Origin: a virus
Taxonomy: Duplodnaviria; Heunggongvirae; Uroviricota; Caudoviricetes
Direction: 5' to 3' (one strand)
IMG/VR virus record: IMGVR_UViG_2693429642_000016
Length of the DNA: 4,631 bases
The stretch's first letter is position 1. Each line of letters begins with the position of its first letter. The notes under the pieces were generated by a model. That model searched no databases. It was not told where the DNA came from and was given only the letters and a program-made list of their open reading frames with translations. A program made the position numbers and the translations under genes. Below are positions 59 through 4,631 of the stretch, in pieces.

Positions 59-3000
59 ATGGGAAAAGGTGGCGGTAAGGCACACACGCCTCGTGAGGCG
101 AAGGATAATCTCAAATCCACGCAGATGATGAGCGTGATTGATGCGATTGGTGAGGGACCCATTGAAGGTCCGGTGAAAGGCCTGCAGAGTATTCTGGTGA
201 ACAAAACCCCGCTGACGGACACGGACGGTAATCCCGTGATACACGGTGTGACCGCGGTCTGGCGCGCCGGGGAGCAGGAGCAGACACCACCGGAAGGCTT
301 TGAGTCCTCCGGAGCTGAAACTGTACTGGGTGTGGAAGTGACGAAGGCAAAACCGGTGACACGCACCATTACGTCAGCGAACATTGACCGCCTGCGGGTG
401 ACCTTCGGGGTGCAGTCACTGGTGGAGACCACCTCAAAGGGTGACCGTAACCCGACGTCTGTCCGCCTGCTGATTCAGCTTGAGCGTGGTGGTAAATGGA
501 TGACGGAAAAGGATGTCACCATTAACGGCAAGACCACCTCGCAGTTCCTGGCGTCGGTGATTCTGGATAATCTGCCGCCCCGGCCCTTTAACATCCGGAT
601 GGTCAGGGAGACGGCGGACAGCACCACGGACCAGCTGCAGAATAAGACGCTCTGGTCGTCATACACCGAAATCATCGATGTGAAACAGTGCTACCCGAAC
701 ACGGCCATTGTGGGGCTGCAGGTGGATGCGGAGCAGTTCGGCGGCCAGCAGATGACGGTGAACTACCATATCCGCGGTCGCATCATCCAGGTGCCGTCAA
801 ACTATGACCCGGAAAAACGCACGTACAGTGGTATCTGGGACGGCAGTCTGAAACCGGCATACAGCAACAACCCGGCCTGGTGTCTGTGGGACATGCTGAC
901 TCACCCGCGCTACGGGATGGGAAAACGTCTGGGGGCGGCGGATGTGGACAAGTGGGCGCTGTATGCCATCGGGCAGTACTGCGACCAGACGGTCCCGGAT
1001 GGTTTCGGGGGCACAGAGCCGCGGATGACCTTTAATGCGTACCTGGCACAACAGCGTAAGGCGTGGGACGTTCTCAGTGATTTCTGCTCGGCGATGCGCT
1101 GTATGCCGGTATGGAACGGCCAGACGCTGACGTTCGTTCAGGACCGCACGTCGGATGTGGTGTGGCCGTACACCAACAGCGATGTGGTGGTGGATGATAA
1201 CGGCGTGGGGTTCCGCTACAGCTTCAGTGCCCTGAAGGACCGGCACACGGCGGTGGAGGTGAATTACACCGACCCGCAGAACGGCTGGCAGACCTCCACG
1301 GAACTGGTGGAAGACCCGGAAGCCATACTGCGCTACGGACGCAACCTGCTGAAGATGGATGCGTTCGGCTGCACCAGTCGCGGTCAGGCCCACCGTGCCG
1401 GGCTGTGGGTGATAAAGACAGAACTGCTGGAAACGCAGACGGTGGATTTCACACTCGGGTCACAGGGGCTGCGGCACACACCCGGTGACATCATTGAAAT
1501 CTGTGATAACGACTATGCCGGAACCCTGACCGGCGGACGTGTCCTGTCCATTGATGCTGCCACCCGCACCCTGACGCTGGACCGTGAAGTGACACTTCCG
1601 GGGACAGGTACATCGACGGTGAACCTGATTAACGGCAGCGGTAAGCCGGTGAGTGTGGACATCACCGCACACCCCGCGCCGGACCGGATACAGGTCAGTA
1701 CCCTGCCTGATGGTGTGGAGACATACGGGGTGTGGGGACTCTCCCTGCCGTCACTGCGCCGTCGCCTGTTCCGCTGTGTCTCCATCCGGGAAAACACGGA
1801 CGGCACCTTTGCCATCACGGCAGTGCAGCACGTACCGGAAAAAGAAGCCATTGTGGATAACGGAGCCCGCTTTGAGCCGCAGTCAGGCACCCTGAACAGC
1901 GTTATCCCACCGGCAGTGCAGCACCTGACGGTGGAGGTGAGCGCAGCTGACGGCCAGTATCTGGCGCTGGCGAAATGGGACACGCCGCGGGTGGTGAAGG
2001 GCGTGCGCTTCAGTCTGCGCCTGACCAGTGGAAGCGGTGAGAACAGCCGCCTGCTGACCACCGCCATCACTGCCGATACGGAGCACCGTTTCAGTGGCCT
2101 GCCTCTCGGGGAATACACCCTGACGGTCAGGGCGATTAACAGCTATGGCCAGCAGGGCGAACCCGCCACCACCACGTTCCGGATTAACGCACCGGCAGCG
2201 CCTGCCGGTGTTGAACTGACGCCGGGGTATTTTCAGATAACGGCGGTACCGCGTCTTGCGGTGTATGACCCGACGGTGCAGTTTGAGTTCTGGTTTTCGG
2301 AGGCAAAAATTGCAGACGCCGCACAGGTGGAAACCTCTGCCCGTTATCTGGGGACCGGCAGTCAGTGGAGTGTCTCCGGTCCGCACATTAAGCCCGGAAA
2401 GGATTTCTGGTTTTATGTGCGCAGCGTCAACCTGGTGGGTAAATCTGCTTTTGTGGAAGCCAGTGGACGGGCGAGCAATGATGCTGCGGGCTATCTGGAA
2501 CTTTTCCGGGAAAAGATAGGAAAACTGCATCTGGCAGAGGCGCTGTGGGCAGAGATTGACAACAGTCAGCTGAAGGACGAGATGGCGGAAATGCAGACCA
2601 CCATCACAGAAACCCGCAATGAAATCACACAGACGGTCAGTAAAACGCTGGAGGACCAGAGCGCCACCATACAGCAAATCCAGCGCGTGCAGAAGGACAC
2701 AAATGATGACCTTGCTGCACTTTACATGCTGAAGGTACAGAAAACAAAAAATGGCATACCCTATGTTGCCGGTATTGGAGCGGGGATTGAGGATACTGAT
2801 GGCCAGCCCCTGAGCAACATACTGCTGCTGGCTGACCGTATTGCGATGATTAACCCGGAGGACGGCAACACCACGCCGTTATTTGTGGCGCAGGGGAATC
2901 AGTTGTTCATGAACGATGTGTTCCTGAAGCGGCTGTTTGCGGTGAGTATCACCTCGTCCGGCAATCCCCCTACGTTCTCCCTGACGCCGGAAGGCAGGCT

Positions 3001-3589
3001 GACGGCCCGTAATGCGGATATCAGCGGACATATCAGTGCGAACTCGGGCACGCTGAATAATGTCGTGATAGCGGAGAACTGTACCATCAAAGGTACTCTG
3101 AGAGCGGAAAATATCATTGGCGATGTGGTGAAAACGCACAATGTCAGTCTTCCTGATCTCAGGGCTGCAGGGGAGCACAGACACGCGACAGAACGAACGG
3201 TTACTGTCATTGATGATCAGTCGTTTGACCGGAATATTGTTATCCCGCCGGTTTTTTATTCCGGTATTATCTACAAAGGAAGTGATGGTGACGGTGCGAC
3301 CTCAATCTGTACGCTGACGGTGAGTGTGAATGATCGGGTGGTGTTCAGCAAAACCTCATCCATCGGTACCAGGCGTACGTCAGGGGGATACCCCGTTCAG
3401 GAAGACACCATATATCCCGGGTCATCCACTCCGTTCAGCTATTTCATGAGGATGGCGTCAGGGGGAGGTGATGTCAGGATCAAGTTCCGGATTGAGGTCA
3501 TCTATTATGGAACTGCACCGGGTTTTATGACCACAGGGATACAGATCACAACGATGAAGGCGTCAGCTTCAGGATTTGTGGAAAGTTAA
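59..3589 (+). CDS. J: Tail tip attachment / host specificity protein (lambda gpJ family, central tail fibre), 1176 aa
   Basis: Seen: single uninterrupted ORF, ATG at 59, TAA at 3587..3589. Established knowledge (from memory): N-terminus [22 protein letters not shown]...[15 protein letters not shown] closely matches lambda J ([22 protein letters not shown]...), and collinear similarity continues through most of the protein (e.g. [115 protein letters not shown]). The size is typical of J (lambda J is about 1130 aa). The C-terminal part from about nt 3130 diverges from lambda. Confidence 0.95.
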
Positions 3590-3958
3590 TCCCGGACGAT
3601 CGTGATTGCCGGAAGGAGACAAAAACCGCACAGTATGCGCGGGTGCCTTTGGCTGATGGCCGGAGGGAACACCTGAAAGCCTGATGTGAAAAGGCCCCGA
3701 GTCAACTTCAATGTTAACCCGAGGCCCTGATCCGTCTATCTTAAGCAAGTGGCAGGTTAGCGCCTCTCCGTAATAAGGAGCAAGTGCTGTGTCGCAAAAA
3801 CCACCGTGATTTGTATCACTGTAGTGCTCATTATCTGGATCACCCACCGTTCACTGTGTGAATTCCGGTTCCGGATAGCACCTTTTTAATCCTGTAAACC
3901 ACGATTTTTACCGCAGACCGGGAAACCGGCACTGCGGTTTTTTTTATGGGGAAAATCT
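3590..3958 (+). other. Non-coding J-stf spacer (moron-like or decayed-gene region); no credible protein-coding ORF
   Basis: Seen: 369 bp with no + strand ORF of 60 codons or more. The only minus-strand ORF (3569..3847) starts with GTG, has no SD and overlaps the J stop. The spacer contains two consensus AAGGAG motifs (3613..3618, 3775..3780) not followed by substantial ORFs, a TAATAAGGAG motif (3771..3780), and a terminal intrinsic terminator. Established knowledge: lambda carries lom between J and stf. Confidence 0.5.
3911..3945 (+). terminator. Rho-independent (intrinsic) terminator, + strand
   Basis: Seen: GC-rich hairpin CCGCAG-A-CCGG-[GAAA]-CCGG-CA-CTGCGG (3911..3937): 6-bp outer stem, small internal loop, 4-bp inner stem, GAAA tetraloop. 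It is followed immediately by T8 (3938..3945). The reverse complement has no U-tract after the stem, so it is unidirectional on the + strand. Confidence 0.7.
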
Positions 3959-4510
3959 ATGACAGTCAGAATATCGGGCGTGCTGAAGGACGGCACCGGG
4001 AAGCCGGTGCCGGGATGCACCATAGAGCTGAAAGCGCGACGCACCACAGAGACAGTGATAGTCACCACGGTGGCGCAGGGGCAGCCGGGGGAAACCGGCA
4101 GTTACAGTTTTGATGTGGAGCCGGGGTGGTACCGGGTGACGCTGAACACGGAAGGGTACGCCCCGTCGTATGTGGGTGACATTCTGGTGAAGGCGGATTC
4201 TGAGCCGGGAACGCTGAATAAATTTCTGATGGAACAGGATGAGGCGCAGTATTACCCGAAAGCGCTTGCAGAGCTGGAAGCGGTGGCAGCGGAAATCCTG
4301 AAGCGTGCTGAAGCGTCGGCGGCGAGTGCAGAGGAAGCGAAGAAACGGGCAGAGAATGCCCGGGGACCGGCGGGCGAGAAGGGGGACACAGGTCCACAGG
4401 GTGCCACAGGGGCACAGGGACCAGCCGGGGCAACGGGGGCGGTCGGACCAAAAGGTGAGCCGGGGCCATTCATATTTCCTCCGCATGTTGCCCGGGCAAT
4501 TCTAGAGTAG
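3959..4510 (+). CDS. stf: Side tail fibre protein, N-terminal Stf-like domain plus collagen-like repeat; 183 aa, probably truncated or a gene fragment
   Basis: Seen: ATG 3959, TAG 4508..4510, weak purine-rich RBS GGGGAAAA at 3948..3955. Established knowledge (from memory): the N-terminus [28 protein letters not shown] matches lambda Stf ([28 protein letters not shown]), and similarity continues through ...EPGTLNKFL. Inference: 183 aa is far shorter than a full side tail fibre (lambda Stf is 774 aa), and the Gly-X-Y pattern breaks 14 codons before the stop, so this looks like a truncated or joined gene. Confidence 0.8.
4364..4468 (+). repeat. Collagen-like Gly-X-Y triplet repeat (protein-level) within stf
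   Basis: Seen: translation [35 protein letters not shown] has Gly at every third position for about 11 consecutive triplets and is GC-rich. The pattern ends after codon 4466..4468. Confidence 0.8.
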
Positions 4511-4519
4511 CGGGATCAG

Positions 4520-4631
4520 ATGGCAATCGCTTATTGGCAAAATGACAATTTTGTCATTTTCCTGTCACCGGAAAATCAGAGCCTGGCGAGTAAAGTTGGC
4601 AGCATAAAATCACCAGAAATTATGAGCCTAT
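4520..4631 (+). CDS. Hypothetical protein, 5' partial (runs off window end); function unknown
   Basis: Seen: ATG at 4520, open to the window end (MAIAYWQNDNFVIFLSPENQSLASKVGSIKSPEIMSL...), in the same frame as stf and 9 nt after its TAG. No convincing SD (CGGGATCAG upstream). I do not recognise the N-terminus. Only 37 codons are visible, so confidence that it is a real gene is low. Confidence 0.35.
   Translation, partial: MAIAYWQNDNFVIFLSPENQSLASKVGSIKSPEIMSL
4539..4576. repeat. Two overlapping inverted repeats (possible protein-binding site or RNA hairpins)
   Basis: Seen: AAAATGACAA-tt-TTGTCATTTT (4539..4560; 10-bp arms, 2-bp spacer), overlapping ATTTTCC-tgtcacc-GGAAAAT (4556..4576; 7-bp arms, 7-nt loop). 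The symmetry is directly visible; the function is unknown. Confidence 0.5.

What the first reader, a model, noticed from the sequence alone, without database searches (positions are those of the whole stretch)
3590..3958. Gene-less 369-bp spacer with orphan ribosome-binding motifs where lambda carries lom
Seen: between J and stf there is no plausible protein gene, yet the spacer holds two perfect AAGGAG motifs (3613..3618, 3775..3780) and a TAATAAGGAG double-stop-plus-SD signature (3771..3780). Possible translation products are only tiny: GTG 3784..3861 (25 codons, SD spacing of only 3 nt), GTG 3789 (6 codons) and ATG 3711..3773 (20 codons). The spacer ends in a strong intrinsic terminator. 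Established knowledge: this is the position of the moron lom in lambda, and morons are typically promoter-gene-terminator cassettes. Inference: the spacer is either a decayed moron that kept its translation signals and terminator, or it encodes a small RNA or micro-protein. I could not find a convincing sigma70 promoter by eye; the best candidate is weak (-35 GTGATT 3806..3811, -10 CATTAT 3829..3834).
Basis: partly seen in the sequence, partly recalled or inferred. Interest (0 to 1): 0.5.

Follow-up and report, generated by a model that had tools for sequence, protein, structure and literature searches.

The report
Decayed hok/sok toxin-antitoxin cassette
The "empty" spacer between the tail genes J and stf is the broken remnant of a well-known prophage-borne hok/sok toxin-antitoxin cassette: two deletions have destroyed the toxin gene, while the antisense antitoxin RNA gene still looks intact, so it is an ordinary relic rather than something new.

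Summary
The spacer, however, is not anonymous. It is homologous end to end to a hok/sok-type type I toxin-antitoxin cassette that many E. coli lambdoid prophages carry between J and stf, and that Stx phages carry just after lom.

Of 68 unique homologous loci, 63 keep a 46-aa Hok/Gef ORF. The window allele does not. It has:
- a GTG start codon;
- a 10-bp frameshift deletion, which leaves the 6-codon ORF at 3789;
- a 103-bp deletion that removes the Hok C-terminus, the stop codon and the 3' half of the mRNA fold-back helix;
- a T-to-C change in the hok -10 element.

The leftover frame (3806-3889) still scores above the Pfam HOK_GEF threshold.

AAGGAG at 3775 is the real hok ribosome-binding site. 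AAGGAG at 3613 lies in the hok promoter spacer. The terminator (3910-3945) is the end of the hok mRNA. On the minus strand, a Sok-like RNA gene (promoter 3783-3754, hairpin 3728-3691) looks intact.

The doubly deleted allele is rare: 2 of 5,426 complete genomes. This is a known kind of element in a known kind of decay, so interest is low.

The parts
The T-to-C change at 3629 hits a T that is at least 90% conserved.
   Evidence: In alignment A2 of 66 loci the TTGCC[G/C] hexamer and the TA..(A/G)T hexamer are conserved at fixed spacing. The hexamer is TACAGT, TAGATT or TAAATT in relatives, and only the window type has C at the first position. The assignment as a promoter is inferred from the consensus and from its distance to the mRNA 5' end. 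It was not measured.
3641..3945 (+). Residual hok mRNA transcription unit, about 305 nt (about 420 nt in intact relatives). It runs from the conserved 5' end GGGTGCC to the intrinsic terminator.
   Evidence: The Rfam RF01794 model aligns in full from 3641. Intact relatives align over the whole unit. The intact relative folds into a 5'-3' closed structure with z = -7.9. The window RNA does not form this closure.
3641..3657 (+). 5' half of the fold-back helix (the tac-side sequence GGGTGCCTTTGGCTGAT).
   Evidence: In the intact relative L004 these bases pair with ...GGTCAGCCGGATGGCACC near the 3' end. The sequence is nearly invariant in A2.
3687..3748 (-). Predicted Sok-type antisense RNA, about 62 nt. 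It has a roughly 20-nt single-stranded 5' tail, a 16-bp hairpin (3728-3691) and a U-tract.
   Evidence: The fold has an energy of -29.1 kcal/mol and z = -4.6. G-U pairs make the stem better on the minus strand than on the plus strand (read from the sequence). The hairpin is conserved in 28 distinct variants, with a few two-sided changes. The ends are inferred and expression was not tested.
3754..3783 (-). Predicted sok promoter: -35 TTGCTC (3783-3778), 18-nt spacer (17 nt in most relatives; the extra base is the inserted T at 3774), -10 TAACCT (3759-3754).
   Evidence: The promoter is conserved in the relatives. However, AGGTTAGCGCCTCTC was the search pattern used to fetch them, so invariance of the -10 region is partly an effect of how the loci were chosen. 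The same TAACC hexamer is what was mutated in the sokW 'pro-less' construct, as reconstructed from primers YO-421 and YO-597 in PMC8621323. Stx-phage members with an intact hok also have an 18-nt spacer.
   Evidence: AAGGAG or AGGAG lies 7-9 nt upstream of the hok start in the aligned hok loci checked.
3789..3809 (+). Ancestral hok start codon (GTG here, ATG in most relatives) followed by the frameshifted stub VSQKPP*.
   Evidence: The otherwise intact locus L022 also uses GTG, so the start-codon change alone is not disabling.
3796..3802 (.). Junction of the 10-bp deletion. One copy of AAAAACCGTT was lost between AAAAACC direct repeats, which shifts the hok frame.
   Evidence: Alignments A1 and A4. 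The exact junction sequence occurs in only 2 of 5,426 complete E. coli genomes.
3806..3889 (+). Out-of-frame Hok remnant (transmembrane segment plus the SLCEFRFR motif), ending in a foreign tail APF*. PGAP calls its last 21 codons (3824-3889) a hypothetical protein in LZSFT34.
   Evidence: Pfam PF01848 HOK_GEF scores 25.9 bits against a cut-off of 22. PHROG 251 matches at E = 2.8e-10. NCBIfam Hok family matches at E = 1.3e-5, below its cut-off. Translation is and the annotation. There is also a Ser-to-Arg change at 3848.
3871..3879 (.). Junction of the 103-bp deletion (104 bp against some relatives), between the imperfect direct repeats CCGGATAGC and CCGGATGGC. It removes the last 13 Hok codons (GAEIAAFLQCKQ plus the preceding residue), the stop codon, a GC-rich stem-loop and the 3' strand of the fold-back helix.
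   Evidence: The deleted stretch includes the most conserved DNA of the family (columns 321-358 of A2 are at least 90% invariant). The junction occurs in 7 of 5,426 genomes.
3880..3884 (+). Residual fbi-like element GCACC (GGCACC or GGCACCC in intact loci), complementary to the 5' GGGTGC.
3910..3945 (+). Intrinsic terminator of the hok mRNA: ACCGCAG-ACCGG-GAAA-CCGGC-A-CTGCGGT followed by T8.
   Evidence: The fold is. The terminator is conserved in the J-stf subgroup. Other subgroups have a different hairpin plus T-tract (CCGCAGCGTAAAAACTGCGGGTTTTC) at the same place.

Best explanation
The spacer is a degenerate allele of a prophage-borne hok/sok-type type I toxin-antitoxin cassette.

**How the intact form works.** A promoter at about 3606-3634 makes an mRNA of about 420 nt. 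This mRNA encodes a 46-residue membrane toxin of the Hok/Gef family. It is kept translationally silent by pairing between its 5' and 3' ends. A short, unstable antisense RNA (Sok), transcribed from the opposite strand across the leader, also silences it.

**What happened in this window.** The toxin half is dead. The start codon is GTG. A 10-bp deletion between AAAAACC repeats shifts the frame after five codons. A 103-bp deletion between CCGGAT[A/G]GC repeats removes the conserved C-terminus, the stop codon and the 3' partner of the fold-back helix. The -10 element of the hok promoter is weakened.

**What remains.** The hok ribosome-binding site, the terminator and an apparently intact sok gene (promoter, recognition tail, terminator hairpin) are left.

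**Most likely behaviour.** The locus no longer kills or addicts. At most it still produces a Sok-like antisense RNA and a non-coding remnant of the hok transcript. Homology, the lesions and the structural elements are shown. Transcription of either strand and loss of toxicity are inferred.
For: **Homology**
- The spacer matches 198 phage records. Features under the listed matches are annotated 'MokW-like host killing', 'hypothetical protein' or nothing.
- Its leader is found in about 1,750 of 5,426 E. coli genomes, and the listed relatives are mostly annotated 'Hok/Gef family protein'. In the listed relatives the cassette lies upstream of stf, and in the loci fetched with upstream flank it follows J or a J remnant.
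- The full Rfam hok-leader model RF01794 aligns at 3641-3800 with E = 1e-4.
- The remnant frame passes the Pfam HOK_GEF cut-off and matches PHROG 251.

**Coding constraint in relatives**
- 63 of 68 unique homologous loci keep a 46-aa ORF.

**Lesions**
- The lesions are defined against the nearest intact relatives and confirmed by translation.
- They are rare alleles, found in 7 and 2 of 5,426 genomes. That is what recent decay predicts, not a maintained variant.

**RNA anatomy**
- The intact relative folds with a 16-bp 5'-3' closing helix, z = -7.9. The window RNA lacks this helix.
- The Sok hairpin is strong (z = -4.6) and conserved.
- The sok -10 hexamer TAACCT corresponds to the element mutated to abolish sokW activity in PMC8621323.
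- The terminator is confirmed.

**Context and precedent**
- The prophage itself is truncated inside stf.
Against: - There are no expression data for either strand.
- The Rfam score (32.5 bits) is below the gathering score of 59. Even intact clade members reach only 35-51 bits.
- The clade lacks a conserved mok frame, so the textbook mechanism cannot be transferred unchanged.
- The covariation test of the 5'-3' helix gave no support, because the 3' region is misaligned between subgroups.
- A 27-aa peptide containing the whole transmembrane segment could in principle be made by reinitiation at the overlapping GTGA (3806-3809). Loss of toxicity is therefore inferred, not shown.
- The loci were fetched with a pattern that lies inside the sok promoter, which inflates its apparent conservation.
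Confidence: 0.88

Rival explanations
1. Orphan antitoxin with a retained job. The toxin is dead, but the Sok-like RNA is still made. It acts in trans on hok mRNAs of paralogous cassettes in co-resident prophages, as an anti-addiction or cross-protection function. That activity would be why the sok half looks intact.
For: The sok promoter, tail and hairpin carry no obvious lesion and are almost identical to those of the intact locus L022. The two complete genomes with the identical relic carry 2 and 3 further copies of this leader.
Against: The sok gene is only about 100 bp long, and the decay is recent (rare alleles). Its intactness is therefore expected by chance. The recognition tails differ between subgroups, so cross-pairing is not assured. 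The paralogues in those genomes could not be retrieved, and there are no expression data.
Confidence: 0.15
2. A still-toxic mini-Hok. Ribosomes translating the 6-codon stub (SD 3775-3780, GTG 3789) terminate at TGA 3807-3809 and reinitiate at the overlapping GTG 3806. This would yield a 27-aa membrane peptide (MICITVVLIIWITHRSLCEFRFRIAPF) that keeps some activity.
For: The stop and start codons overlap as GTGA. The peptide keeps the whole hydrophobic segment and the SLCE motif, and it scores as HOK_GEF. PGAP predicts a 21-aa product in this frame. Loss of the fold-back helix would, if anything, de-repress translation.
Against: The GTG is an ordinary internal Val codon in all relatives, so the overlap is accidental. 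The peptide lacks the charged N-terminus. It also lacks the C-terminal GAE[F/I]AAFLQCKQ segment, the most conserved part of the family. From my own recollection of Poulsen et al. 1991 on Gef, not checked here, the periplasmic C-terminal part carries the toxic domain. A de-repressed toxin would be counter-selected.
Confidence: 0.06
3. Fully inert DNA. Both promoters are silent and the spacer is neutral filler, apart from separating J from stf.
For: The hok -10 has lost its conserved first T. The sok spacer is 18 nt rather than the commoner 17 nt. The prophage is itself a truncated remnant. The consensus promoter scan found nothing on either strand inside the spacer.
Against: An 18-nt sok spacer also occurs in the Stx-phage members with an intact hok. 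The sokW promoter has the same non-consensus TAACC -10 and is functional (PMC8621323). The scanner would therefore miss real promoters of this family.
Confidence: 0.3
4. Remnant of lom or of its flanks, as the reader suggested as one thing to check.
For: Position only. Lambda has lom between J and stf, which is established knowledge.
Against: blastn of the spacer against 50,697 phage records gives homology only to hok-type loci. In phi346 the Lom CDS ends 63 bp before the homology starts. No ORF of the spacer matches any Pfam family other than HOK_GEF.
Confidence: 0.01

Closest known systems
hok/sok of plasmid R1 and the chromosomal hok loci of E. coli (Hok/Gef family, Pfam PF01848; Rfam RF01794)
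   Same: The toxin is of the same family. The cassette layout is the same: promoter, structured leader of about 150 nt, SD, a toxin ORF of about 50 codons, a 3' element that pairs with the 5' end, and a terminator. There is an antisense RNA gene with its promoter next to the toxin SD and a terminator hairpin inside the leader. PMC6733600 describes the long-distance 5'-3' interaction and 3' processing of hok mRNA. Decay of chromosomal copies is the rule in K-12 (PMC2654758).
   Different: The toxin has 46 residues rather than 50-52, with a distinctive AAFLQCKQ end. There is no conserved mok reading frame. Scores against the Rfam model stay below its gathering score even for intact members. In the window itself the toxin ORF and the 3' pairing partner are deleted.
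hokW-sokW of Stx2 prophage Sp5 (Takada et al. 2021, PMC8621323)
   Same: It is a prophage-borne hok/sok module shown experimentally to be a type I TA system. The sok promoter architecture is the same (-35 TTGC.., about 17 nt, -10 TAACC), as reconstructed from their primers. It offers a plausible role for intact relatives, namely assisting lysis and phage release on induction.
   Different: It is a different paralogue. HokW has 51 aa (MKQQKAM...) and a different leader (GCGGGTGCTTGAGGCTATCTGCC...). The window's clade sits elsewhere in the Stx phages, right after lom, and has not been tested experimentally to my knowledge.
Lambda-type morons (lom, bor)
   Same: It is an autonomous promoter-gene-terminator unit inserted between late genes, at the J-stf junction. 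PHROG 251 is classed as a moron.
   Different: There is no sequence relationship to lom. The cargo is a TA module, not an outer-membrane protein, and here it is non-functional.

Membership tests
hok/sok type I toxin-antitoxin | Small hydrophobic toxin ORF of the Hok/Gef family (PF01848) | tested here: met
   Homology is met. The remnant 3806-3889 scores 25.9 bits (cut-off 22) and intact relatives score 33-41 bits. PHROG 251 also matches. This row concerns ancestry only. Integrity of the ORF is the next row.
hok/sok type I toxin-antitoxin | Intact, translatable toxin reading frame | tested here: not met
   A 10-bp frameshift deletion leaves VSQKPP*. A 103-bp deletion removes the C-terminus and the stop codon. 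By contrast, 63 of 68 relatives keep 46 codons. The window is therefore a pseudogene allele, not a functional member.
hok/sok type I toxin-antitoxin | cis-encoded antisense RNA (Sok) overlapping the toxin mRNA leader, with its own promoter and terminator | tested here: inconclusive
   The predicted promoter (3783-3754) and terminator hairpin (3728-3691) are present and conserved. The -10 is homologous to that of sokW. Transcription was not measured.
hok/sok type I toxin-antitoxin | 5'-3' fold-back (tac/fbi) that locks the full-length mRNA | tested here: not met
   In the intact relative L004 the minimum-energy fold has a 16-bp 5'-3' helix. In the window the 3' strand is deleted except for GCACC, and the fold lacks the closure. 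The covariation test across the clade was inconclusive because of misalignment.
hok/sok type I toxin-antitoxin | mok reading frame overlapping hok, through which Sok acts | tested here: not met
   In most of 55 unique clade members no start codon exists upstream in either alternative frame that reads across the hok start. This is a property of the whole 46-aa clade, not just of the window.
hok/sok type I toxin-antitoxin | Match to the Rfam covariance model RF01794 at its gathering score | tested here: not met
   The window scores 32.5 bits and intact relatives 35-51 bits, against a gathering score of 59. E-values of 1e-4 to 5e-9 are nevertheless significant, and the alignments cover the full model length.
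hok/sok type I toxin-antitoxin | Toxicity of Hok and neutralisation by Sok | not testable with these tools
   This needs expression experiments. It has been shown only for the paralogue hokW-sokW (PMC8621323).
lom / Ail-Lom moron | Sequence homology to lom or its flanks | tested here: not met
   No lom hit was found by blastn. The Lom CDS in phi346 lies upstream of the homologous segment. No Pfam hit other than HOK_GEF was found.

The most novel reading that the evidence does not exclude
The toxin-less cassette survives as an 'orphan' Sok gene. Its antisense RNA would neutralise hok mRNAs of the 2-3 paralogous cassettes present in the same genomes, acting as an anti-addiction or immunity module between co-resident prophages. 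More broadly, the whole 46-aa Hok clade, which lacks a mok frame, may be controlled by Sok through a mok-independent mechanism that has not been described.
Probability: 0.15. Interest if true: 0.4.

Novelty: already known. Interest (0 to 1): 0.14.

Why it matters
It matters little beyond annotation. It shows that an apparently empty J-stf spacer with 'orphan' signals is a recognisable pseudogene of a common prophage TA module. The identical sequence in RefSeq is annotated only as a 21-aa hypothetical protein and could be re-labelled a hok pseudogene with an associated sok.

Two side points may be of modest interest to TA specialists. First, this abundant 46-aa Hok clade (about a third of complete E. 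coli genomes) has no conserved mok frame. Second, it falls below the Rfam gathering score, so it is likely under-annotated. In 933W and VT2-Sakai records, for example, nothing is annotated at the homologous site.

Tried and rejected
- **Promoter and terminator scanner.** It found neither the plus-strand terminator nor the family's promoters. Its criteria exclude interrupted stems and non-consensus -10 elements, so its negative result was not used.
- **Other Rfam hits.** The archaeal snoRNA models sR32 and sR28 matched at 121-178, inside J, with E = 0.2-0.5. I treated these as chance.
- **Other small ORFs.** The frames tested were GTG 3784 (25 aa), ATG 3711 (20 aa), GTG 3602 (24 aa), and minus-strand ORFs of 92 and 41 aa. 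None has a Pfam match. Their start codons and frames are not conserved in the 66-locus alignment.
- **mok search.** No conserved overlapping frame was found.
- **Covariation test of the 5'-3' helix on alignment A2.** Cells were 66.6% paired, with no excess over shuffles. MAFFT puts the GGCACC element of different subgroups in different registers, so I treat this as uninformative rather than negative.
- **RNAalifold on the Sok region.** The hairpin is recovered, but with only 2 pairs showing two-sided changes. This is weak covariation support, again limited by indels.
- **Lom-remnant hypothesis.** Rejected.
- **Co-resident paralogues in LZSFT34 and NCTC9112.** I could not retrieve them to test Sok cross-pairing. 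Only their number is known.

Full report
**What is in the window.** An ORF of 1,176 codons (59..3589) is followed by a 369-bp gap and then an ORF starting at 3959. The same DNA is 100% identical over 3400-4468 in E. coli strain LZSFT34. There the flanking genes are annotated gpJ and 'prophage tail fiber N-terminal domain-containing protein'.

**Checking the observation.** AAGGAG occurs exactly at 3613-3618 and 3775-3780 and nowhere else in the window. Two occurrences in 4.6 kb is the chance expectation (mean 1.74; 100 of 200 shuffles reach 2 or more). The micro-ORFs are as described. The terminator is real: a 7-bp outer stem and a 4-bp inner stem followed by T8 at 3910-3945, folding at -22.8 kcal/mol with z = -5.4. 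The consensus scanner missed it.

**Identity.**
- A permissive Rfam scan aligned the full 157-position 'sok' model RF01794 to 3641-3800 on the plus strand (32.5 bits, E = 1e-4, below the gathering score of 59). The model consensus ends in AUG. From my recollection of the R1 sequence, it represents the hok mRNA leader in the sense orientation, so the hit gives the direction of the toxin mRNA.
- blastn of the spacer found 198 phage records, mostly Stx phages. Some annotate the site as 'MokW-like host killing'.
- In E. coli genomes, the listed relatives carry a 141-nt 'Hok/Gef family protein' gene immediately upstream of stf. In the loci fetched with upstream flank this gene follows J or a J remnant.
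- The window's 27-aa ORF matches Pfam HOK_GEF above the curated cut-off (25.9 vs 22 bits). It also matches PHROG 251, category 'moron' (E = 2.8e-10).
- No other small ORF in the spacer matches anything.

**The lesions.** Alignments with intact relatives show the following changes in the window allele:
- GTG instead of ATG at the toxin start (3789). The otherwise intact locus L022 shares this.
- Loss of one 10-bp unit, AAAAACCGTT, between AAAAACC repeats (junction 3796-3802). The start codon now opens only VSQKPP*.
- A Ser-to-Arg change at 3848.
- Loss of 103 bp between the imperfect repeats CCGGATAGC and CCGGATGGC (junction 3871-3879). This removes the C-terminal GAEIAAFLQCKQ, the stop codon, a GC-rich stem-loop and most of the 3' pairing element.
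- T-to-C at 3629, in the first position of the conserved -10 hexamer of the plus-strand promoter.

I then fetched loci from viral contigs with a 15-nt pattern and combined them with the annotated loci. Of 68 unique homologous sequences, 63 keep a 46-codon ORF. The exceptions are three window-type sequences (the window itself, LZSFT34 and one viral contig), the M3 type (103-bp deletion only) and one frameshift. The 103-bp junction occurs in 7 of 5,426 complete genomes and the 10-bp junction in 2. The clade's leader is present in about 1,750 genomes. This is the signature of a recently decayed allele of a common, constrained gene.

In the 66-locus alignment:
- A -35 TTGCC[G/C] and a -10 TA..(A/G)T lie 17 nt apart, six bases upstream of the conserved 5' sequence GGGTGCC (3641).
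- The first AAGGAG lies in the spacer of this promoter. In other subgroups it is replaced by unrelated sequence, so it is not a ribosome-binding site.
- The second AAGGAG is the toxin's Shine-Dalgarno sequence and is conserved in the aligned loci.
- The TAA preceding it does not end any conserved ORF.
- The terminator closes the toxin mRNA. Other subgroups have a different hairpin plus T-tract at the same position.
- The intact relative L004 folds (z = -7.9) with a 16-bp helix joining its first 17 nt to ...GGUCAGCCGGAUGGCACC near the 3' end. This is the fold-back lock described for hok mRNA (PMC6733600). The window RNA has lost that 3' strand and does not close.

**The antisense gene.** On the minus strand I read -35 TTGCTC (3783-3778), an 18-nt spacer and -10 TAACCT (3759-3754). 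About 20 unpaired nucleotides follow, then a 16-bp hairpin (3728-3691) and a U-tract. The fold is, with z = -4.6. Several stem positions are G-U on the minus strand, hence A-C mismatches on the plus strand, which favours a minus-strand RNA. The hairpin is kept in 28 distinct variants.

The TAACC hexamer is the element that Takada et al. mutated to silence sokW. I reconstructed this from their primers YO-421 and YO-597, and sokW is a proven antitoxin. The inserted T lengthens the spacer from 17 to 18 nt, but the Stx-phage members with an intact toxin also have 18 nt. One caveat applies: my fetch pattern lies in this promoter, so its invariance is partly due to how the loci were chosen. The sok half therefore looks intact, but nothing here shows that it is transcribed.

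**Mechanistic conclusion.** The intact cassette is a self-contained moron encoding a type I TA system. In the window the toxin can no longer be made in its native form, and the mRNA has lost its fold-back lock. The most likely state is a non-toxic relic that may still emit a Sok-like RNA.

The rivals are:
- a trans-acting orphan Sok (the genomes with this relic hold 2-3 more copies of the leader);
- a residual 27-aa mini-toxin made by reinitiation at the accidental GTGA overlap;
- complete transcriptional silence.

A relationship to lom is excluded at blastn and Pfam sensitivity.

**Comparison with the known.** The closest systems are hok/sok of R1, the chromosomal hok loci, and the prophage hokW-sokW.
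- The window fails membership as a functional member, because the ORF and the fbi strand are deleted.
- The whole clade departs from the textbook system in having no conserved mok frame, and it scores below the Rfam gathering threshold.
- Decay of hok loci by point mutation and rearrangement is documented for all five K-12 copies (PMC2654758).
- hokW of Sp5 is a different paralogue, with 51 aa and a different leader. The window's clade sits directly after lom in Stx phages.

**Verdict.** This is a known element in a known state of decay, so interest is low.

Noticed in passing
window 4469-4631 (junction at 4468/4469): The last 163 nt are core E. coli chromosome. They hold the first codons of cusR on the minus strand (CAT at 4471-4473) and the cusR-cusC intergenic region with the palindrome AAAATGACAATTTTGTCATTTT. 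They are at least 95% identical (100% in the best hits) in 5,334 of 5,426 genomes. The stf ORF is cut after about 170 codons and fused to this sequence. No complete genome or viral contig examined carries this junction. The prophage is therefore truncated at its right end, or the source sequence is rearranged or chimeric.
   Followed up: partly
L001-L125 (46-aa Hok clade); window 3641-3790: The clade has no conserved mok-like ORF. In most of 55 unique members, neither alternative frame has a start codon upstream that reads across the hok start. How Sok would repress hok here is therefore not explained by the R1 model.
   Followed up: partly
L002 2501-2811 (phage phi346); records AF125520 (933W) 45490-45749 and AP000363 (VT2-Sakai) 44531-44790: Stx phages carry this 46-aa hok paralogue immediately downstream of lom. 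In several reference records nothing is annotated there. It is distinct from the experimentally studied hokW-sokW of the same phage.
   Followed up: partly
window 3616-3642 (minus strand) and 3621-3630 vs 3933-3942: A terminator-like hairpin plus T-tract on the minus strand (CCGCGCATACTGTGCGG TTTTT) overlaps the hok -10 and +1 region. Its arm AAAAACCGCA is a perfect 10-nt inverted repeat of the 3' half of the plus-strand terminator, 302 nt away (I3). The cassette is thus bracketed by two outward-blocking terminators. The hairpin is weak in other subgroups.
   Followed up: no
L022 10175-10649; L110 4966-5440; L125 7845-8319: Other members show different lesions or variants. L022 has a 20-nt gap in the 5' leader stem and a GTG start, but an intact ORF. 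L110 has a frameshift in the C-terminal codons. L125 has a duplicated segment of about 34 nt in the 3' stem region.
   Followed up: no
L004 540-698, L009 6990-7148, L002 2522-2684, L006 336-497: No member of this abundant clade reaches the Rfam RF01794 gathering score (35-51 bits vs 59). Routine Rfam annotation will therefore miss it.
   Followed up: no
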